From IMG/VR virus record IMGVR_UViG_3300027861_000012, positions 32,380-96,379 of that record: a DNA stretch of 64,000 nucleotides; one strand, given 5' to 3'. Below the pieces are notes generated by a model that was not told the DNA's origin, ran no database searches, and saw only the letters and a list, made by a program, of their open reading frames with translations. Positions 3,443 to 42,031 of the stretch are shown piece after piece; the stretch's first letter is position 1; every line of letters starts with the position of its first letter. A program made the translations under genes and the position numbers. Source of the stretch: a virus. Its lineage: Duplodnaviria > Heunggongvirae > Uroviricota > Caudoviricetes.

Positions 3443-4537
3443 TCAAGCCCGATCTTGCGCATCTTTCCGAGCATAATAGTCCGCGCTGACAATTTTCACG
3501 ATCATCCGACCACATAGTACAGATGACCATTGTTCTTTCACGGGGGTTACTACACACCCCTCTCGGCCCTTGTATTTGCAAGTGATGTCCGCCGGGCTCG
3601 CTGCCATGGTCGGACCATCACAAAGGGACATGAGGCTTTCATCGAACACACCCTCATAAAGGAGGGGGACTGTCGGGACATTATGTTTTGTGGCATACGC
3701 CTTGACATCTGCCCAGTCCATGTACTTCATGTGCCCTGGCTGCCCGGCCATGATATCGAACAACCGATAACCCCCTCGTTCGGGGGTCCCATAGTCCATA
3801 TCCTGTACCTTGCGGCCATAGATTTCGCCATAGGCTACAACCGAGCAGTTGGCCTCTCTGAGGGCGATGTCGGTGAGCATGTTCTGCATCTCTCCGGTCA
3901 AAGGAAGCCAATACAGGGACGCTCTGGAGCCAGAACGGGCATCTGAGAGGGCTTTCACATTGGTCTTGTGTGACCCACACATGAACTCGGGCCCGTCTTC
4001 CGTGTAGACCAAGCCCACCCGGCTGTTGGTGCCGTGCATCTTCTCGGTGGCTCGCACGATGGTTCCTGGCGGAATCGCACCGGGGTTGGCCCGTAGATGC
4101 TGTATATGTGTATAGACCGGGAACAACAGGTTCTCGGGTCGAGCATCCCCGGCAGTAAGCTCGGGTGGCGGCTCGTACTTGATCCCGGCGTAGACCTCAG
4201 TGACATCGGCCCCAAAGGTTAGGTCACCTTCGTAGGGAATCACGAAGCCAAAGGACGCCTCCCCACGGATACGGATCGCACCTACCCTACACTGAGATTT
4301 CTGAGAATCACCAGGGTAGATGGAATGCTTGAGATACGCACGCACACCCAGCGATTCAGCGGTATCTTCTGGGATTAGCATGTCAGGCGGGAAGAACACC
4401 ACTTTGTCCTTCACCTTATGGAGGCCCTTTTTCACGACCAACTGAAAACCGAGTACCTGGATGATGTCCAGGCGATCTGCATTGGGGTGGTCTTCGACTT
4501 CATTGACGCGCTCAACAGTGATGAGTGTCTTGCTCAT
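3443..4537 (-). CDS. RNA ligase (Rnl2-like nucleotidyltransferase) with N-terminal tRNA-binding OB domain
   Basis: N-terminal VNEVEDHPNADRLDIIQV... matches the CsaA/Trbp111/EMAP tRNA-binding OB fold (HPNADKL signature). The central EKMHGTN matches the lysine-adenylyltransferase motif I KxHGTN of T4 Rnl2. Confidence 0.65.
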   Translation of the reverse strand: MSKTLITVERVNEVEDHPNADRLDIIQVLGFQLVVKKGLHKVKDKVVFFPPDMLIPEDTAESLGVRAYLKHSIYPGDSQKSQCRVGAIRIRGEASFGFVIPYEGDLTFGADVTEVYAGIKYEPPPELTAGDARPENLLFPVYTHIQHLRANPGAIPPGTIVRATEKMHGTNSRVGLVYTEDGPEFMCGSHKTNVKALSDARSGSRASLYWLPLTGEMQNMLTDIALREANCSVVAYGEIYGRKVQDMDYGTPERGGYRLFDIMAGQPGHMKYMDWADVKAYATKHNVPTVPLLYEGVFDESLMSLCDGPTMAASPADITCKYKGREGCVVTPVKEQWSSVLCGRMIVKIVSADYYARKDAQDRA

Positions 4538-21523: not shown

Positions 21524-23106
21524 TCATTCGCGGGCAAAGTCAGCCATGATCTTCGGGGCACTGGCATCGAAGCCAACGACATCGAGCATCCCTGCATCGT
21601 TGGGGTCCGCGATGGAGATCTCGTTGGCGGTGAAGGCCACCACAATCAACTTGGCGTTGATACCCATCTTCCGGCGGTAGTCCTGTAGTGCTACAGCAGG
21701 GTGTACGCTGTTACAGTTGGTCTCGCTGTCCGTGTAGATCACGAACACATCAGTCGGAATCTTTTCCTGGGTCGCGTACCTCATCGGAAGTGAACAGTCT
21801 GTGCGACCAAATGGGAGGCCGGTGATCATGCGATTCACTTCAGAAAGCGATGTTCGCTTGGTAACGGGCAACGAGTGGAAGGTATTGCAGAACCCATAGG
21901 TCTGCACTTGGTCCTCAGATCGAACCAAAGTAGCAGCCATACACCCGGCAGCATCCCGTGGCGTCAAGTGCGTGTTGTTGATCGTGCCATAGGTCATGGA
22001 CCCAGACACATCCACACCCAGCAGATAACGCTGACCAGTGGGCTCGACGTACCCAAAGGATGCATCGTAGGCGTCTTCCAGGGAATCCAACACCTGGGTT
22101 ACAGGGCTCCAACGGAGACTGCCACGAACACCACAACCTTGTTGATAGGTGGAGAGTGCCAGCAGCACGCTGAATGGATGTACCCGAGCACGTTGAAGCT
22201 GCTCTCGGTCCCGAAGCTGGGCACATACCTGCTTCACTGCTGAGGTGTTGGGCTTCAGAACGTCGATGCTGGTCATCTTACCCAAATTCCGGATCAAAGC
22301 CGTCATAGGCATCCGCAACTCAAGCATGGCTTCCCAGACTCTTGGGTCATTGAGGAACTGAGTCGGGATGTTCTCACGGACCAAGCCGTAGCTCCGAACC
22401 AAGGCGGCAACCTCTTTCGAGGTGGTAGCCAACTTGACCTTTTCGACGCCTTCCAGTGTGTGGTTGGTCACCATCGGGTAATCCCCACCCGGCTTCCGCA
22501 CGGCGTACCCAAGGATCTGGTTGATCTCGGCGTTGTTGGTGTGTGCATGGCAACACCGAAGCACGTCACGATGAGACCAGCCACCGCGTTGCTTGTACTT
22601 CGTAATCTGAGCGGCCAGCCGATCAGGTCGGTGATTCAGATACCAGTTCGAGACGGCACGCTTCAAGGCACGGCCCCAGCCACGGAATTGAGTCACTGCA
22701 TCCACGAATTGGAACAGGTGTGTTCCGATTCGACATACTTCGCTAAGGCGCGGCAGTGCAATGCTACTGTAGCGGGCATCGGCACACAACATAGCCAAAC
22801 AGAAAATGGCAGGGTCATTCTTTGCAGCCCGGCCTTCGTCACTGATCTGCACAATGCGGTCCACGGTTCGCTGTGCATCCTCAGCAGCACAGATGCGAAG
22901 AGACTCAGCAGCTTCGATAGTGAGCTTCTGCTCACCGGCATAATAGGTTCCGCCTTCACACCCAAGAATCAGAAACCGATCCAAGCGTGTCCAGCAATCA
23001 ACTTCCCAACCAAAGCCACCGCCGCTGTTGGCGACTTGGTTACTACCGACCAAGGGGCGCGTCTGAGGAGTGTTACTTGGCGAAAGTGTGCGTGCGTACC
23101 TATTCA
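21524..23106 (-). CDS. rsr: Ro60 (TROVE domain) ribonucleoprotein orthologue with C-terminal vWA domain
   Basis: N-terminal TROVE block NSGGGFGWEVDCWTRLDRFLILGCEGGTYY matches Ro60 (NSAGGYAWKVDDWQRL..GSEGGTYY). C-terminal vWA MIDAS region LLGVDVSGSM. Start set at MNRYARTL, which has AAGGAG 6 nt upstream. Confidence 0.8.
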
Positions 23107-23375
23107 TCGTCTTCTCCTTGAGGAATTCGGTCCTGCTCGATCCAAAGTTCGTAAAGACAGCACAGGACATTGTCAGAAAAGTGGCCGTGTTCGCTATCGA
23201 CATTCGCATCCGACAGTTGTTTGTAAATGTCTGCCAGAACATCATCGCTCGTAGGCGACCCATCAACGTTTGGAGACAAATCAACGATAGCTCGTATGAT
23301 AATCGGAAGCTGAGCTTCCAATCTGGCTTTGGCAGCCAGAAGCTCTTCCATCAATGCATCGGCGACATCCATCAC
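23100..23375 (-). CDS. hypothetical small acidic protein
   Basis: 91-aa ORF ending 7 nt into the rsr start. Confidence 0.3.
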   Translation of the reverse strand: MMDVADALMEELLAAKARLEAQLPIIIRAIVDLSPNVDGSPTSDDVLADIYKQLSDANVDSEHGHFSDNVLCCLYELWIEQDRIPQGEDDE

Positions 23376-23934: not shown

Positions 23935-24663
23935 TCACCCACTGTTGTCTTCAAAGGCTTGTATCAGGCCAGGTGTCGTGATCGGTGGCAATGCCAACTC
24001 CCCTTCGACGATGTCACCTGGAAGTCTATCTAAGGTAGCTAGGAACGAGTCCTTCTCACCACGGAGCCGATCCAGCAAGTCGGGTTTCACGATCTCTGCC
24101 CCTTCACCAAGCATGGTCACATACAGAGCCATCAGATGCTCGTCACCCACCAACGTGGGACACGCATTGCGATGATTGTGCATGTGAACAAAATTCAGTT
24201 GGTTCTGGATGGTAATAGGTTCCCGGCCCATCTTGTGGATGACAATCGTATCGTCATGAATCAATGGGGCCACGACCCTATAGTAAGTGTCACGATCAAA
24301 CTCACATTCCTCGAATCGCACCAATCTGGCGTTCATAAGCTCAGAATTGAACTTACCTAGTTTGCGGCAAACTATCTGGTTGCCAAACACCACTGCATCG
24401 TGGCCAAGCAGAACTTCCAAAGCATCCCCGAGAATTGACTTACCGCTCGACTGCGGCCCCCACAGAAACAAATAGGGCACCCTCAGCCCTTGTATGACAT
24501 ACTTCACCCAACGTTGCATGTACTCCATACCAGTGACACGGTTCCGAATAGCCCAGTCATTGGCAGCAAGAGCGGTGTTCAATTCACCTCCAGCAATGTG
24601 ACCCAGGATGGTATCCCAGGATGGGTGTCCACTGTCTTCTGGCATACTTGTCTCCGGGTTCAA
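23935..24663 (-). CDS. stand-alone primase C-terminal/D5-like P-loop NTPase domain protein (paralogue of the C-terminal region of the 35607-38375 prim-pol helicase)
   Basis: LFLWGPQSSGKSILGDALEVLL...NSELMNARLVRFEE is nearly identical to LFLWGPQNSGKSILGDAIELLV...NSELATTIFARLEE in the large primase-helicase. Confidence 0.6.
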   Translation of the reverse strand: MNPETSMPEDSGHPSWDTILGHIAGGELNTALAANDWAIRNRVTGMEYMQRWVKYVIQGLRVPYLFLWGPQSSGKSILGDALEVLLGHDAVVFGNQIVCRKLGKFNSELMNARLVRFEECEFDRDTYYRVVAPLIHDDTIVIHKMGREPITIQNQLNFVHMHNHRNACPTLVGDEHLMALYVTMLGEGAEIVKPDLLDRLRGEKDSFLATLDRLPGDIVEGELALPPITTPGLIQAFEDNSG

Positions 24664-24737
24664 AATGTAGCACGGCTACGAGCAAAGAGGTAGGAGTGGG
24701 GGTTTCATGCTTCCAATTACACCACCGAAGACGCTAG

Positions 24738-24812
24738 GCGACTCCGACCGGGACTCGAACCCGGACCAAATCATTTCAAGTGATAATCCACTCCAAATCG
24801 GCTCGTAAGCCA
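24738..24812 (-). ncRNA. tRNA-like element (T-arm + 3' acceptor strand + anticodon-like hairpin; no matching 5' acceptor strand)
   Basis: Minus-strand sense has a perfect T-arm CCGGG-TTCGAGT-CCCGG, then TCGGAGT-C, and a hairpin ATCA-CTTGAAA-TGAT. No ACTCCGA partner was found. Confidence 0.25.
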
Positions 24813-24910
24813 TGTATTGGGACCATGAGCCGAGCCAGTCTTTCGACATACTCCCGACTCACAGCCTTGTGTTTTGACTCCGAACAAATGTCAAACATGG
24901 GAACTATGCT

Positions 24911-24941
24911 ACTGGCGCTCTACCTACTGAGCTACCCCACG
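24911..24941 (-). ncRNA. tRNA 5'-half-like fragment (acceptor 5' strand + canonical D-arm)
   Basis: Sense CGTGGGG-TA-GCTC-AGTAGGTA-GAGC starts 2 nt after the encoded CCA of the upstream element. No canonical anticodon or T-arm follows contiguously. Confidence 0.25.
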
Positions 24942-24942
24942 C

Positions 24943-25016
24943 TGGGCGTGAGAGGAGGAATCGAACCACCGACATCCAGTTCCTTTGATAACCCATATCC
25001 TACGGCTCAAAGTCAA
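24943..25016 (-). tRNA. probable tRNA with encoded CCA (anticodon not resolved by eye)
   Basis: Sense 3' end ...GGTGG-TTCGATT-CCTCC-TCTCACG-C-CCA (T-arm with one mismatch). The 5' boundary is estimated from length only. Confidence 0.3.
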
Positions 25017-25062
25017 GGAGCACCGAGGGACTCGAACCCTCAACGGTTGACCATCAGTGCTC
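25017..25062 (-). ncRNA. 46-nt tRNA minihelix-like element (7-bp acceptor + perfect T-arm, no D or anticodon arms)
   Basis: Sense GAGCACT-GATGGTCAACCGTT-GAGGG-TTCGAGT-CCCTC-GGTGCTC-C. Acceptor pairs 7/7 including one G-U. T-stem pairs 5/5. Confidence 0.3.
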
Positions 25063-25398
25063 ATGTGCGGGCAAGTTTGCGGTGAACGGGTTTTCATGTG
25101 CTCGATAACCGTAAACCAGCGGCCCGCTTGTAACATGCGAGCAAGTTGTTTGCCGAGGTCATGATCTCCTAAAGATAACCCTCAGCTAGCGGCTCGCGTG
25201 TACCTCTGTAAACTTGTGCGAACAAGTTGGTTGGCCAAGGGGGAAATCTTAATTGGATAACCCTTGGCTAATCGGCTCGCACGACTCTTCGGTGATCACT
25301 TCACGACGCTCTCCTTCAGGTAAGTGTAACGTTTGATGAAGCTCTTCACTTAACTATTCAATTCTACCATACTTTGTTTCGGAAGTCAAGGACCAATT

Positions 25399-25677
25399 TC
25401 AAGATTTCTTTTTGGGGAACTTAGACCCCTCAGTTCTGGGCCTCAATGGGTCGGATCGAACCTCATAGGCCCAACCCTCGGCCTCGTTACCCTCAAGCTC
25501 CATCTGAGGGTCTGCATCCCTCATCAAGGCTTCTGCCTCATCCATGGTGTCACAGTCGTTGTGCTCAAAGAGGTCGATGATTACCAAAGCAACCGTCTGG
25601 CGTTCCCCTTCAGGAATGTGCGGTTTGATCGCATCCCACAGGTCCTCGGCCAACATTGATCCACTTCCCCATCCCAT
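25399..25677 (-). CDS. hypothetical acidic protein
   Basis: 92-aa ORF. Confidence 0.4.
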   Translation of the reverse strand: MGWGSGSMLAEDLWDAIKPHIPEGERQTVALVIIDLFEHNDCDTMDEAEALMRDADPQMELEGNEAEGWAYEVRSDPLRPRTEGSKFPKKKS

Positions 25678-25884
25678 ACATAGCTTACTCCTTATGTCCT
25701 ATGTCCTATGGTGCCGCACCGGTGTGCTGGAAGCACCCAGTGATTTATCTCTTTGCCATCCTGCGAATATATGATGTGAAACTCGGCAGGTTCCAACGGG
25801 CCCACACGGGCGTCCCCACCCTCAACAGTTGGGCCAAAGAACGTTATGACCTTCTCAAATAGCCACCAGAACACGGCTCGCTCC

Positions 25885-30745: not shown

Positions 30746-30840
30746 TGGCAACACTGGTCGGACTCGAACCACACGCACCCGGTTCCTCACAGTCCACAGA
30801 CCATCTAACCGGCGCTCTACCAACTGAGCTACAGTGTGCC
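30746..30840 (-). tRNA. tRNA-like gene with encoded CCA and an oversized anticodon arm (possible intron or pseudo-tRNA)
   Basis: Sense GGCACACTG-TA-GCTC-AGTTGGTA-GAGC-G-CCGGTT[22 nt]AACCGG...GG-TTCGAGT-CC..CAGTGTT-G-CCA. D-arm canonical. T-stem imperfect. Confidence 0.4.
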
Positions 30841-31322: not shown

Positions 31323-31386
31323 AGGTACCTATGGGAATCGGACCCACGTCGCCCTTCACGGGACTCTACCATTGAGCTATAGTACC
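31323..31386 (-). ncRNA. anticodon-arm-less tRNA-like element (acceptor + D-arm + T-arm; only 15 nt between D- and T-arms)
   Basis: Sense GGTACTA-TA-GCTC-AATGGTA-GAGT-CCCGTGAAGGGCGAC-GTGGG-TCCGATT-CCCAT-AGGTACC-T. It lies 4 nt downstream of tRNA-Met. Confidence 0.4.
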
Positions 31387-31390
31387 TAAG

Positions 31391-31465
31391 TAGCGGGTCA
31401 GGGATTTGAACCCCAGACCCCCAGATTATGAGTCTGGCGAGCTAACCGGACTGCTCCAACCCGCA
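31391..31465 (-). tRNA. tRNA-Met/Ile2-type (anticodon CAT), elongator-like
   Basis: D-arm GAGC..GCTC, anticodon stem CCAGA/TCTGG with loop CTCATAA, T-loop TTCAAAT, acceptor GCGGGT/ACCCGC. There are no three consecutive G-C pairs at the base of the anticodon stem, so it is not an initiator. Confidence 0.65.
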
Positions 31466-40979: not shown

Positions 40980-41418
40980 CTCGAATCAAGCACGCCGGTT
41001 GATCGCCGGGGCACTCGGTGACTTCTTGACCCATTTGACGAAGTTGCAAGACCCCCTCATTATAGGGGGTCAATACAATGCAACCAAGCTTCTCACGATC
41101 TACCATGATTGGTGCCGGACACGGGGATTTGATCCCACAGACCCCAATCCCACAGCCTGGTTGCAATTGTGCTCCGGTGGGTACATGAAAGCGACCACAG
41201 GGAGCCCAGAGAAGCCGCTGGAGGGCCTTCAAGGGCCGGGACGTAAAGCAACACCTAAGAAGCAACGACCCCCTAAACGGCCTCCTACGAGCTTGGATGC
41301 CGGGAACGATGTGGATCTGGGCCATGGCTACAACGACAAGCCAAAAGGCCACAAGAAGGCTGATTGGGAAGACGAGGGAGAAGATTGGAAAGAAGGAGAC
41401 AGCGATGGCGAAGATTAA
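40963..41418 (+). CDS. hypothetical protein with basic/acidic C-terminal tail
   Basis: 151-aa ORF. Confidence 0.4.
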   Translation: MATQADSNQARRLIAGALGDFLTHLTKLQDPLIIGGQYNATKLLTIYHDWCRTRGFDPTDPNPTAWLQLCSGGYMKATTGSPEKPLEGLQGPGRKATPKKQRPPKRPPTSLDAGNDVDLGHGYNDKPKGHKKADWEDEGEDWKEGDSDGED

Positions 41419-42031
41419 CCTACACTCGGCCATCTCCCACCTGATGGGGAATCTGATGTGTGCTATTGACGTGGAAACCACGGGGCGCAGGTTTGGCCAC
41501 CACGAGATAATTCAGATTGGGGTACAACCTCTGGACAATGATTTTCAGGTCATTCCAGAGATTCTCCCGTTCTACACAGAGGTTGCTCCAGACTATCCGT
41601 TGCGGGCCGAGCGGGAGGCCACCAAGATCCATGGCCTAGACCTGGCTCACATCTGCCAGTATGCACCTGATCAATTCAAAGCCGCCGATATGTTTGAGGA
41701 ATGGTTCCAACGACTGGAGCTACCACTTAACAAACGGATTGTGCCGTTGGCACACAACTGGGCCTTCGAGAGAAGCTTCTTGATGGCATGGCTGGGTATT
41801 GATGCCTGTGAAGACATGTTCCATGTCCATCCCAGGGATTCAATGCAACTGGCGATCTCGATCAATGATCGGTATGTCTTCCAGTGTCAGAAACGACCCT
41901 GGGCCTCAGTGAGTCTCAAGTCGTTATGTGAGCATCTTGGTGTGATAAACGAACGGCCACATGATGCTCTATGTGACGCTCGTGCGGAAGCTCAGATCTA
42001 TCGCAAACTGTTATTCTATCCCCTGGTCTGA
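41408..42031 (+). CDS. DnaQ-like (DEDDh) 3'-5' exonuclease
   Basis: Exo I CAIDVETTG, Exo II HNWAFE, Exo III HDALCDA. Start set at MAKINL with a GGAGA site. Confidence 0.7.
   Translation, partial: AKINLHSAISHLMGNLMCAIDVETTGRRFGHHEIIQIGVQPLDNDFQVIPEILPFYTEVAPDYPLRAEREATKIHGLDLAHICQYAPDQFKAADMFEEWFQRLELPLNKRIVPLAHNWAFERSFLMAWLGIDACEDMFHVHPRDSMQLAISINDRYVFQCQKRPWASVSLKSLCEHLGVINERPHDALCDARAEAQIYRKLLFYPLV

What the first reader, a model, noticed from the sequence alone, without database searches (positions are those of the whole stretch)
24738..25398. Mosaic array of tRNA, tRNA fragments and a 46-nt minihelix, threaded with a dispersed ~25-nt repeat and extended hairpin-forming repeats
On the minus strand, a probable tRNA with encoded CCA (24943-25016) is followed immediately by a tRNA 5' half (24911-24941) and then a T-arm/3'-acceptor module (24738-24770). 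The matching halves of the latter two are missing or displaced by ~130 nt, so these are not ordinary tRNAs. A 46-nt acceptor/T-arm minihelix sits at 25017-25062. Five copies of GATAA(C/T)C-N7-9-NNCGGCTCG occur at irregular spacing. Copies 2 and 3 extend to ~50 nt and share TGCGA(G/A)CAAGTTG, with flanking palindromes AACTTGT...ACAAGTT and CTTTGA...TCAAAG. This looks like decayed or rearranged tRNA genes, an insertion into a tRNA, or a family of small structured RNAs. It is not a CRISPR array.
Basis: seen in the sequence. Interest (0 to 1): 0.65.

Follow-up and report, generated by a model that had tools for sequence, protein, structure and literature searches.

The report
Phage Y RNA array beside Ro60
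The "mosaic of tRNA fragments and repeats" is a tandem array of five Y RNA genes plus one tRNA-like minihelix, lying just upstream of the Ro60 RNA-binding protein operon of an uncultured large phage. This is a known kind of locus, here in an unusually rich and well-preserved form.

Summary
The features are real. The five repeats are far beyond chance, and the sequence is identical in three independent assemblies. They are not decayed tRNAs: no tRNA finder calls anything here.

On the minus strand, a sigma-70-like promoter (25389-25361) precedes seven structured units:
- three ~65-nt stem-loop RNAs (A, B, C)
- a 46-nt acceptor/T-arm minihelix
- a 143-nt RNA (D) with a circularly permuted tRNA-like core
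- a spacer hairpin
- a 138-nt RNA (E) with a second permuted tRNA-like core

Each of the five RNAs opens with the Ro60-binding lower stem (C-G pair, bulged C, G.U), then an upper stem ending in GG, then UUAUC. A Ro60 (TROVE + vWA) gene lies 1.6 kb downstream on the same strand.

Covariance models place A-C and, in a test that used no window sequence, D and E in Ro60-linked RNA families. These families occur in about 150 metagenomic, bacterial and cultured-phage loci, almost always on the Ro60 strand, with strong covariation. Real tRNAs often abut such modules elsewhere, so the minihelix is probably a processing signal.

Verdict: a new member of a known kind (bacterial/phage Y RNAs, YrlA-like). 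RNA expression and Ro60 binding are inferred, not shown.

The parts
25361..25389 (-). Sigma-70-like promoter: TTGACT, 17-nt spacer, TG-n-TAGAAT. It lies directly after the stop codon of the upstream 92-aa ORF.
   Evidence: 10 of 12 consensus positions plus an extended -10 TG; the only promoter-like site in 24400-25700. Equivalent TTGACA-17/18-TAnnnT sites sit ahead of the arrays in L001, L002, L006 and L007 (read).
25216..25282 (-). Y RNA module A (short). Lower stem GUGCGAGC/GUUCGCAC, bulged C 25274, G.U and A-U pairs, upper stem GCCAAGGG/CCCUUGGC, UUAUC at 25260-25256.
   Evidence: Minimum-free-energy fold z = -4.5. Model R1 gives 67.3 bits, but A was in R1's training set. blastn finds 85% identity to L013.
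25137..25197 (-). Y RNA module B (short). Lower stem GCGAGC/GCUCGC, bulged C 25191, upper stem GCUGAGG/CCUCGGC, UUAUC at 25178-25174.
   Evidence: fold. R1 gives 59.6 bits (B was in its training set). The independent model R2 gives 17.6 bits, E = 0.007.
25067..25127 (-). Y RNA module C (short). Lower stem GCGGGC/GCCCGC, which differs from B (GCGAGC/GCUCGC) by a compensatory A-U to G-C change. Bulged C 25121, UUAUC at 25108-25104.
   Evidence: R1 gives 60.0 bits (C was in its training set). The independent model R2 gives 20.0 bits, E = 0.002.
25017..25062 (-). tRNA-like minihelix. 7-bp acceptor stem GAGCACU/GGUGCUC, 14-nt connector, T-arm GAGGG-UUCGAGU-CCCUC, discriminator C at 25017. It starts 4 nt after C and abuts the first paired base of D.
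   Evidence: z = -3.0. A homologue lies in the same place in L007 (3786-3831), with T-stem pairs 1 and 2 kept through double changes and acceptor pair 1 changed from G-C to A-U (read). Rfam mascRNA gives only 20.6 bits, not significant.
24874..25016 (-). Y RNA module D (long, YrlA-like).
- Lower stem: 25016-25005 with 24885-24874; bulged C 25004.
- Upper stem: 25000-24992 with 24901-24893.
- UUAUC: 24991-24987.
- Anticodon-stem analogue: ACUGG 24980-24976 with CCAGU 24915-24911.
- Variable region: AUGUC.
- T-arm: 24970-24954.
- Acceptor 3' strand: 24953-24947.
- Then C73 at 24946, CCA at 24945-24943, G(-1) at 24942.
- Acceptor 5' strand: 24941-24935.
- U8 A9, then D-arm 24932-24917.
   Evidence: Rfam YrlA gives 29.3 bits, E = 0.0004, below the cut-off of 69. 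R2, built without any window sequence, gives 69.3 bits, E = 6e-16, the best hit in 64 kb. Fold. RNAalifold recovers the lower stem, T-arm and acceptor-like hairpin with covariation.
24821..24866 (-). Spacer hairpin between D and E: 14 bp, GGCUGUGAGUCGGG / CUCGGCUCAUGGUC.
   Evidence: Predicted in the fold of the whole 686-nt transcript. Not tested for conservation.
24674..24811 (-). Y RNA module E (long, YrlA-like).
- Lower stem: 24811-24801 with 24683-24674; bulged C 24800; G.U and A-U pairs.
- Upper stem: GGAGUGG 24794-24788 with CCACUCC 24699-24693.
- (A)UUAUC: 24787-24782.
- V / anticodon-like hairpin: 24784-24770, with a 7-nt loop CUUGAAA.
- T-arm: 24764-24748.
- Closed acceptor-like hairpin: 24746-24726, with a CUA loop.
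- D-arm: GUGU-AAUUGGAA-GCAU, 24722-24707.
   Evidence: R2, built without window sequence, gives 51.7 bits, E = 1.7e-11, the second-best hit in the window. Fold. E resembles L011:4848-4985 arm by arm. The A15:U48 pair is possible here where D has G15:C48 (read).
23935..24645 (-). First gene of the operon after the array: a DUF5906 / D5-like P-loop NTPase. The ribosome-binding site GGAGA is at 24655-24651, and the start codon lies 29 nt after E.
   Evidence: Pfam DUF5906, 8e-11. Gene calls in the source assemblies. No terminator-like site between E and this gene.
21524..23107 (-). Ro60/Rsr orthologue (527 aa), with TROVE and Ro60 vWA domains and a DVSGS MIDAS motif. Its start overlaps the preceding 90-aa ORF by 8 nt.
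   Evidence: Pfam vWA_Ro60 3e-61 and TROVE 5e-37. phrog_850, 9e-71. Gene calls. Sequence.

Best explanation
The region is the non-coding 5' part of a phage Ro60 operon and encodes a tandem array of five Y RNAs: A, B and C (short) and D and E (long, with a tRNA-like domain).

**Shown here**
- Each module has the two-helix Y RNA scaffold: a lower stem with a C-G pair, a bulged C and G.U/A-U pairs; an upper stem ending in GG; and a loop that starts with UUAUC.
- D and E carry a circularly permuted tRNA-like core in the loop position.
- A Ro60 gene lies downstream on the same strand.
- The same module families sit beside Ro60 genes in many bacteria and phages.

**Inferred**
1. One transcript starts at the promoter at 25389-25361 and runs through the array into the DUF5906-orf-orf-Ro60 genes.
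2. The transcript is cut into separate RNAs. RNase P and 3' tRNA-end enzymes would recognise the minihelix between C and D, and exonucleases would trim back to the Ro60-protected stems.
3. Each RNA binds the phage Ro60 through its lower stem.
4. The different loops, and the two tRNA-like domains, tether Ro60 to different partners. The likeliest partner is the host exoribonuclease PNPase, as in the Deinococcus and Salmonella RYPER complex. This would redirect structured-RNA decay or RNA quality control and repair during infection.
5. D has a 7-bp acceptor stem closed by the loop C73-CCA-G. It could be nicked by RNase P as Mycobacterium smegmatis YrlA is, leaving a ready-made CCA end.
For: **A Ro60 gene lies nearby on the same strand**
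- The Ro60 gene is 1.57-2.18 kb downstream on the same strand. This meets the criterion of Chen et al. 2014 (PMC4201824): within 4 kb and on the same strand.

**The modules fold as predicted**
- All five modules fold into lower and upper stems.
- They stay separate domains when the whole 686-nt transcript is folded.

**The short modules belong to a widespread Ro60-linked family**
- Model R1 finds 117 matches in 66 of 85 sources, all on the Ro60 strand, with a median distance of 143 nt upstream of Ro60.
- In bacterial genome assemblies R1 finds 75 matches, 73 of them on the Ro60 strand.
- Pair counts on the 117 matches show 92% of cells paired, against 67% after shuffling and 34-48% with partners slid. 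17 of 19 pairs show double changes. The C-G / bulged C / G.U core is near-invariant.
- UUAUC is near-invariant: both U positions are U in 114 of 114 sequences, and C is present in 112.

**The long modules pass a test that used no window sequence**
- Model R2, built only from other loci, recovers D (E = 6e-16) and E (E = 1.7e-11) as the two best hits in the window.
- Rfam YrlA hits D at 29.3 bits.

**Cultured phages show the same arrangement**
- BONAISHI, BearBQ, Alice and Limpid carry the same short and long modules upstream of Ro60. Their Rfam YrlA scores are 36-59 bits.

**tRNAs abut such modules elsewhere**
- 16 of 114 modules elsewhere lie within 15 nt of a same-strand tRNA.
- In phage Limpid the order is Y RNA, tRNA-Ile, Y RNA, with no gaps.

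**Literature**
- M. smegmatis YrlA and YrlB are processed from one precursor upstream of rsr. That YrlA, which has a 7-bp acceptor stem, is cut by RNase P and gains CCA (PMC4201824).
- Thermus phage phiLo Ro60 binds two upstream Y-like RNAs and forms ternary complexes with PNPase in vitro (PMC12135203).
Against: - There are no expression data, so RNA ends, processing and Ro60 binding are all inferred.
- D scores below Rfam's YrlA cut-off (29.3 against 69 bits). E gets no YrlA hit at all.
- A, B and C get no Rfam Y_RNA or sbRNA hit at E <= 10.
- The published YrlA motif GNCGAAN0-1G is only partly present: GCCGAU, GCCGCU, GCCGCU, GCCGUA and GCCGAU.
- A, B and C were in R1's training set. Their independent support is weaker: R2 gives 20 and 17.6 bits for C and B, and A rests on blastn to L013.
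- The array is farther from Ro60 than is typical (about 1.6-2.2 kb, with three ORFs between, against a median of 143 nt).
- The encoded CCA loop of D is absent from the L007 homologue.
- The minihelix's role rests on one homologue plus the analogy to abutting tRNAs. With flanks included, RNAalifold preferred a different pairing for its acceptor strands.
- No PNPase or other partner was identified.
Confidence: 0.82

Rival explanations
1. The structured modules are never released. They act only in cis, as Ro60-binding sites in the 5' leader of the Ro60 operon mRNA, giving autoregulation of stability or translation.
For: The array lies between the only promoter-like site and the first gene. No terminator-like site follows E, and E ends 29 nt before the start codon. 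All modules carry a Ro60-binding stem.
Against: Characterised bacteria release stable Y RNAs from comparable precursors upstream of rsr (PMC4201824). In other loci the same modules lie downstream of Ro60 (19 of 117) or are flanked by real tRNAs, which implies excision. The elaborate tRNA-like domains with preserved tertiary-pair nucleotides are not needed for a simple operator. The two roles are not mutually exclusive.
Confidence: 0.1
2. The region holds decayed, split or rearranged tRNA genes (pseudogenes), and the repeats are leftovers of duplication.
For: T-arms, a D-arm, acceptor-like stems and a CCA are present. Genuine tRNA genes lie 1.4 kb and 6 kb away on the same strand.
Against: No tRNA finder resolves a tRNA here. 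The permuted order is conserved in unrelated Ro60 loci with compensatory changes. The non-tRNA parts (lower stem, upper stem, UUAUC) are the most conserved. Linkage to the Ro60 strand holds for 190 of 192 matches.
Confidence: 0.03
3. The tRNA-like parts (the minihelix and the cores of D and E) act independently of Ro60. They would be decoys or substrates for host tRNA-directed enzymes, for example anticodon nucleases or tRNA-modifying or CCA-adding enzymes, as a phage counter-defence.
For: The same genome encodes an RNA ligase (3443-4537), tRNAs and two further aberrant tRNA-like genes. Jumbo-phage surveys place TROVE proteins among RNA-repair systems (PMC7824862).
Against: D has no anticodon loop. 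Every tRNA-like core is embedded in a Ro60-type scaffold. The short modules A-C have no tRNA-like part yet share the scaffold. Ro60 linkage is near-universal.
Confidence: 0.05

Closest known systems
YrlA / YrlB Y RNAs of bacteria and mycobacteriophages (Chen et al. 2014, PMC4201824; Rfam RF02553)
   Same: They are encoded within 4 kb of Ro60 on the same strand, with several Y RNAs per locus. At least one has a permuted tRNA-like domain (V hairpin, T-arm, closed acceptor-like stem, D-arm) that keeps the U8:A14, G18/G19 and Levitt-pair nucleotides. Shorter partners lack the tRNA-like domain. In M. smegmatis they are made from one precursor upstream of rsr, and a 7-bp acceptor stem there permits RNase P cleavage.
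   Different: This locus has five modules rather than two. Both strands of the Ro60-binding helix are conserved here, whereas the literature says only the 5' strand is conserved in bacteria (bioRxiv 10.1101/312249). The GNCGAA motif is degenerate. D scores 29.3 bits, against the Rfam cut-off of 69. D has a fully encoded C73-CCA-G loop. A tRNA-like minihelix separates two of the modules.
Metazoan Y RNAs and nematode stem-bulge RNAs (Rfam RF00019, RF01656)
   Same: The scaffold is the same: a lower stem with a bulged C next to G.U/A-U pairs, an upper stem ending in GGG/CCC, a loop starting with UUAUC, and a 3' strand CAC-AA-CUUG. The family consensus matches the RF01656 consensus nearly motif for motif. 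Relatives in L001 and L112 exceed that family's cut-off (44.6 and 41.5 bits against 38). The UUAUC motif is described for sbRNAs and vertebrate Y RNAs in PMC4726728.
   Different: Transcription is from a bacterial-type promoter and polycistronic, with no Pol III terminator or oligo-U tail. The window's own modules do not reach any Rfam Y or sbRNA score. tRNA-like insertions are unknown in metazoan Y RNAs.
Thermus phage phiLo Ro60 with Yrl1 and Yrl2 (PMC12135203)
   Same: It is a phage-encoded Ro60 with Y-like RNAs in the non-coding region upstream of the gene. Binding to the phage Ro60 and ternary complexes with host PNPase were shown in vitro.
   Different: phiLo has two RNAs, defined by a CGAA motif and predicted folds, and no tRNA-like domain or minihelix was described. 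No sequence comparison with phiLo was made here.
tRNA-punctuated processing of non-tRNA transcripts (e.g. mascRNA from MALAT1; RNase P cleavage of acceptor/T-arm minihelices)
   Same: An acceptor stem plus T-arm element sits exactly at the junction of two RNAs, with its discriminator abutting the next RNA. In related loci real tRNAs take the same position.
   Different: The minihelix lacks both D and anticodon arms. The Rfam mascRNA score is not significant (20.6 against 42.5 bits). Cleavage is untested.

Membership tests
Bacterial/phage Y RNA (Ro60-associated ncRNA, criteria of Chen et al. 2014) | Encoded within about 4 kb of a Ro60/TROVE gene, on the same strand | tested here: met
   The array spans 24674-25282 and Ro60 spans 21524-23107, both on the minus strand, 1.57-2.18 kb apart.
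Bacterial/phage Y RNA (Ro60-associated ncRNA, criteria of Chen et al. 2014) | Ro60-binding module: a 5' strand resembling GGUCCGA that can form a helix with a bulged C | tested here: met
   All five modules read R-G-C-[C]-G, with a pairing 3' strand UUG-Y-Y-C. In the 117-member family the C-G pair occurs in 95 sequences, the bulged C in 111 and the G.U pair in 104.
Bacterial/phage Y RNA (Ro60-associated ncRNA, criteria of Chen et al. 2014) | Motif GNCGAAN0-1G near the 5' end | tested here: inconclusive
   GNCG is present in all five modules, but the following AA is not: GCCGAU, GCCGCU, GCCGCU, GCCGUA and GCCGAU. The wider family consensus GCCGA-AG does fit.
Bacterial/phage Y RNA (Ro60-associated ncRNA, criteria of Chen et al. 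2014) | Physically bound by Ro60 and dependent on it for stability | not testable with these tools
   This needs EMSA or immunoprecipitation; no expression data are available.
YrlA (Rfam RF02553) | Score at or above the curated gathering threshold (69 bits) | tested here: not met
   D scores 29.3 bits (E = 0.0004 locally). E gets no hit at E <= 10. Ro60-linked RNAs of cultured phages also fall short, at 35.8-59.3 bits.
YrlA (Rfam RF02553) | Permuted tRNA-like domain: T-arm, closed acceptor-like stem and D-arm (with or without a V hairpin), keeping the tRNA tertiary-pair nucleotides | tested here: met
   D has a T-loop UUCGAUU, a D-loop AGUAGGUA, U8, A14 and G15:C48. E has a T-loop UUCGAGU, a D-loop AAUUGGAA and A15:U48 (read). 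R2 scores them at 69.3 and 51.7 bits. RNAalifold shows covariation in the T-arm and acceptor-like hairpin.
Metazoan Y RNA / nematode sbRNA (RF00019 / RF01656) | Score at or above the Rfam gathering threshold | tested here: not met
   No hit for the window's modules at E <= 10. Relatives at L001:5937-6000 (44.6 bits) and L112:2862-2933 (41.5 bits) exceed RF01656's cut-off of 38.
Metazoan Y RNA / nematode sbRNA (RF00019 / RF01656) | Lower stem with a bulged C, upper stem, and UUAUC at the start of the loop | tested here: met
   Present in A-E. UUAUC is present in all five copies.
Metazoan Y RNA / nematode sbRNA (RF00019 / RF01656) | Monocistronic Pol III gene ending in an oligo-U (La-binding) tail | tested here: not met
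   This is a tandem array behind one sigma-70-like promoter, and no U-run follows any module.
tRNA | A cloverleaf recognised by ARAGORN, or by Rfam RF00005 at 29 bits or more | tested here: not met
   ARAGORN finds nothing in 24600-25450. The best Rfam tRNA score is 22.9 bits, a partial match to model positions 9-63.
CRISPR array | Near-identical direct repeats at regular spacing | tested here: not met
   The copies are 68-79% identical, with spacings of 205, 117, 70 and 82 nt.

The most novel reading that the evidence does not exclude
The window may exemplify a Y RNA family that has not been described or curated as such. In this family the complete metazoan / stem-bulge scaffold (both strands of the bulged-C lower stem, a GGG/CCC upper stem and a UUAUC loop start) is conserved beside Ro60 across many bacterial phyla and phages. 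That would mean Ro60 and its Y RNA have moved between domains as one unit.

These RNAs are organised as polycistronic arrays punctuated by tRNAs or, as here, by a tRNA-like minihelix, so that tRNA-end enzymes would define the Y RNA termini.

Module D would be the extreme case. It is a circularly permuted tRNA whose loop reads C73-CCA-G(-1). One RNase P cut would then give a mature CCA 3' end and a G(-1):C73 pair, the bacterial tRNA-His hallmark, and could make it chargeable.
Probability: 0.25. Interest if true: 0.6.

Novelty: new member of a known kind. Interest (0 to 1): 0.4.

Why it matters
It resolves a puzzling 'tRNA mosaic' into an ordinary functional class and gives exact coordinates for five candidate Y RNAs and a processing element in an uncultured large phage.

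Three observations made along the way may interest the Ro60 / Y RNA field:
- The metazoan-type scaffold, including UUAUC and both helix strands, is widespread beside prokaryotic and phage Ro60 genes. Yet Rfam's Y-RNA-related families miss these modules in nearly all the Ro60 loci scanned.
- tRNAs or tRNA-like minihelices often abut these RNAs, which suggests how their ends are made.
- Some annotated small phage ORFs, such as Alice gp218 and gp219, probably are Y RNA genes.

Phage Ro60 RNPs are barely studied, so a locus with five distinct RNAs offers a natural test of how different Y RNAs tune one Ro60.

Tried and rejected
- **DNA similarity to phages.** blastn and megablast of the region and of 12 kb around it against 50,697 phage records gave no match.
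- **Rfam at curated thresholds.** Nothing was found in the region.
- **ARAGORN.** Nothing was found in the region.
- **Model R1 on D and E.** R1 does not detect them even with filters off, because of their large insertions. A second model, R2, was built from other loci instead.
- **Alignment quality.** MAFFT put the upper stem of module A and of L002_a one column out of register. Pair counts were therefore made on the model-fitted alignment, which leans towards the model; slid and shuffled controls were used to offset this.
- **Minihelix with flanks.** RNAalifold on the minihelix plus flanks from two sequences confirmed the T-stem but preferred another pairing for the acceptor strands. Acceptor-stem conservation therefore rests on reading the two sequences.
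- **A second promoter at the start of D.** The 13-mer containing TTGACT is repeated at 25010-25022 and 25383-25395, but there is no acceptable -10 element and the scan did not call it.
- **Protein-coding reading.** ORFs of 40-101 aa overlap the array. No gene is called there in the source assemblies, and module lengths vary freely among relatives.
- **Reviews not available.** Two Wolin-lab reviews (PMC10870794, PMC6047535) are not held. I therefore cannot exclude that the UUAUC conservation or the abutting tRNAs have already been noted there.
Full report
**What is in the sequence**

I read the region on the minus strand. The non-coding gap runs from the stop of a 92-aa ORF (25399) to the start of the next gene (ATG at 24645). 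It holds, in order:
- a sigma-70-like promoter, TTGACT-17-TAGAAT with an extended -10 TG, at 25389-25361
- a leader of about 80 nt
- module A (25282-25216)
- module B (25197-25137)
- module C (25127-25067)
- a 46-nt acceptor/T-arm minihelix (25062-25017)
- module D (25016-24874)
- a 14-bp spacer hairpin (24866-24821)
- module E (24811-24674)

The strict form occurs 3 times, against 0.02 expected by chance. The stretch is 100% identical in three independent assemblies, and no gene is called in it there.

ARAGORN finds no tRNA here. Rfam at curated thresholds finds nothing.

**Anatomy of the modules**

Each of the five modules begins with R-G-C-[C]-G. After 7-9 nt comes a stem strand ending in GG, followed by UUAUC. 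Each module ends with (A)ACUUG-Y-Y-C-G.

The ends pair into a lower stem: a C-G pair, then a bulged C, then G.U and A-U pairs. The GG-ending strand pairs with a downstream CC-starting strand into an upper stem. Folding of each module alone gives this architecture. So does folding of the whole 686-nt predicted transcript, where the modules stay separate domains.

Among the paralogues, B (GCGAGC/GCUCGC) and C (GCGGGC/GCCCGC) differ by a compensatory change. A has a G.U pair at the neighbouring position.

**The tRNA-like parts**

In D, the loop position holds a complete tRNA body opened at the anticodon loop and closed at the acceptor end. In 5'-to-3' order it reads:
- ACUGG, the anticodon-stem 3' strand
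- AUGUC, the variable region ending in C48
- the T-arm, GGUGG-UUCGAUU-CCUCC
- the acceptor 3' strand, UCUCACG
- C73, CCA, G
- the acceptor 5' strand, CGUGGGG
- U8 A9
- the D-arm, GCUC-AGUAGGUA-GAGC
- G26
- CCAGU

E has an anticodon-like hairpin that starts in the UUAUC motif, then a T-arm, a closed acceptor-like hairpin with a CUA loop, and a D-arm GUGU-AAUUGGAA-GCAU. It can form A15:U48 where D forms G15:C48. This is the same Levitt-pair alternation that Chen et al. described for YrlA (PMC4201824).

Rfam's YrlA model hits D at 29.3 bits, E = 0.0004 locally, below the cut-off of 69.

**Genomic context**

The genes after E are a DUF5906 P-loop NTPase, two small ORFs, and a 527-aa Ro60 orthologue. 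The Ro60 orthologue has TROVE (5e-37) and Ro60 vWA (3e-61) domains. All are on the same strand, with no terminator-like site in between.

The contig is 161-178 kb. It also carries a class II ribonucleotide reductase, ThyX, an SNF2 helicase, a primase-helicase, a dNMP kinase, an RNA ligase and tRNAs. Its nearest Ro60 relatives include IMG/VR viral contigs. It is therefore most likely a large uncultured phage, although no structural gene was identified in the window.

**Comparative evidence: the short modules**

I built covariance model R1 from A-C plus six short modules of four related loci. Results:
- R1 finds 117 matches in 66 of 85 viral or metagenomic sources that carry Ro60. All 117 are on the Ro60 strand. 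The median distance is 143 nt upstream of the gene, with up to five matches per locus.
- In bacterial genome assemblies (including Verrucomicrobiota, Chloroflexota, Armatimonadota, Myxococcota and Alphaproteobacteria), R1 finds 75 matches, 73 of them on the Ro60 strand.
- On the 117-sequence alignment, 92.1% of cells form pairs, against 67.2% after shuffling and 34-48% with partners slid. 17 of 19 pairs show double changes. That alignment is fitted to the model, which favours the structure; the slid controls argue the signal is real.
- UUAUC and the C-G / bulged C / G.U core are near-invariant.

**Comparative evidence: the long modules**

RNAalifold on 12 long modules predicts the lower stem, T-arm and acceptor-like hairpin with covariation, without input from my models.

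As a test of membership that used no window sequence, I built model R2 from nine long modules of other loci only. In the whole 64-kb window its two best hits are D (69.3 bits, E = 6e-16) and E (51.7 bits, E = 1.7e-11). C and B follow as weak hits.

**Cultured phages**

362 phage records encode a Ro60 homologue. I sampled four: Vibrio phage BONAISHI, Gordonia phage BearBQ, Mycobacterium phage Alice and Streptomyces phage Limpid.
- All four have short (R1) and long (R2) modules upstream of Ro60 on its strand, and none of these is annotated.
- Their Rfam YrlA scores are 35.8-59.3 bits, also below the cut-off. D's sub-threshold score is therefore typical of phage members.

**The minihelix and processing**

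The minihelix starts 4 nt after C, and its discriminator abuts the first paired base of D. L007, whose Ro60 is 69% identical, has a homologue in the same position. There the first two T-stem pairs are kept through double changes, and acceptor pair 1 changes from G-C to A-U (read).

In other loci real tRNAs occupy such junctions:
- 16 of 114 modules lie within 15 nt of a same-strand tRNA, most within 0-4 nt.
- L016 alternates Y RNA and tRNA modules four times.
- Limpid has Y RNA, tRNA-Ile, Y RNA with no gaps.

It is established that acceptor/T-arm minihelices are RNase P substrates. M. smegmatis YrlA and YrlB are cut from one precursor, and that YrlA, which has a 7-bp acceptor stem, is cleaved by RNase P and receives CCA (PMC4201824). 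I therefore infer that tRNA-end enzymes separate the RNAs here. This step is not shown.

**Comparison with known families**

This is the known class of bacterial and phage Y RNAs. Chen et al. 2014 reported YrlA-like RNAs near Ro60 in 254 bacteria and 22 phages. Thermus phage phiLo Ro60 binds two upstream Y-like RNAs and PNPase in vitro (PMC12135203).

The differences are of degree:
- five modules rather than two
- a minihelix between two of the modules
- an encoded C73-CCA-G loop in D
- a scaffold that is closer to metazoan Y RNAs than the literature describes for bacteria

[quoted passage not shown] Here both strands are conserved, together with the UUAUC motif known from sbRNAs and vertebrate Y RNAs (PMC4726728). 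Two relatives even exceed the cut-off of the nematode sbRNA family RF01656: L001 at 44.6 bits and a verrucomicrobial locus at 41.5 bits, against 38.

I found no paper in the held library that describes this. Two key reviews could not be read.

**Verdict**

The 'decayed tRNA' interpretation is wrong. 'A family of small structured RNAs' is right. The element is a five-member Y RNA array with a tRNA-like processing element in the leader of a phage Ro60 operon: a new member of a known kind.

- Shown: the structure, the family membership and the genomic linkage.
- Inferred: transcription, processing, Ro60 binding and the downstream function.

Interest is moderate (0.4).

Noticed in passing
window 31323-31386 (-): A tRNA-like gene directly after tRNA-Met (31390-31465). 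It has normal acceptor, D and T arms, but its anticodon arm is reduced to CCC-GUGAA-GGG. Rfam tRNA gives 32.8 bits; ARAGORN does not call it.
   Followed up: partly
window 30749-30838 (-): A tRNA-like gene with an encoded GCCA end whose anticodon stem (CCGGU/ACCGG) closes a 24-nt loop. Its 5' part overlaps the stop codon of an ORF carrying a Val-tRNA-synthetase C-terminal (tRNA-binding arm) domain. Rfam gives 36.1 bits; ARAGORN does not call it.
   Followed up: partly
window 3443-4537 (-), 41297-42031 (+): The same genome encodes an RNA ligase (phrog_968, 5e-34) and an RNase T-like exonuclease. Together with Ro60 and the tRNAs, this points to an RNA repair or turnover toolkit.
   Followed up: no
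L016 4340-4893; L072 3962-4520; L015 7779-7995; L170 190-484: Y RNA modules and genuine tRNAs alternate head to tail, with gaps of 0-8 nt. Examples are L016 (Y, Gly, Y, Pro, Y, Met, Y) and Streptomyces phage Limpid (Y, tRNA-Ile, Y).
   Followed up: partly
L169 2597-2946 (Mycobacterium phage Alice, record 126954-127303): Three Y RNA model hits lie just upstream of Ro60 gp220: R1 at 2597-2673, R2 at 2695-2842 and R1 at 2873-2946. They overlap the annotated hypothetical ORFs gp218 and gp219, which may be miscalled RNA genes.
   Followed up: partly
L112 2862-2933; L001 5937-6000: Bacterial (Verrucomicrobiota MAG) and viral-contig RNAs beside Ro60 score above the gathering threshold of Rfam RF01656, a nematode stem-bulge RNA family (41.5 and 44.6 bits against 38). 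This is either cross-domain homology or a trap for automatic annotation.
   Followed up: partly
L002 5466-5793: Several Y modules of this locus have CUAG instead of CUUG in the 3' strand. This puts G opposite A where other loci have the G.U pair next to the bulged C.
   Followed up: no
window 25010-25022 and 25383-25395 (+): A 13-mer containing the -35 hexamer (minus strand UGSUCCUUGACUU) occurs both at the promoter and at the minihelix/D junction. No usable -10 follows the second copy.
   Followed up: partly
window 24821-24866 (-): A 14-bp hairpin between modules D and E. Its 3' arm contains CGGCUC, the complement of the GAGCCG lower-stem strand, so it could compete with lower-stem formation in D or E (inverted repeat I2).
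   Followed up: no
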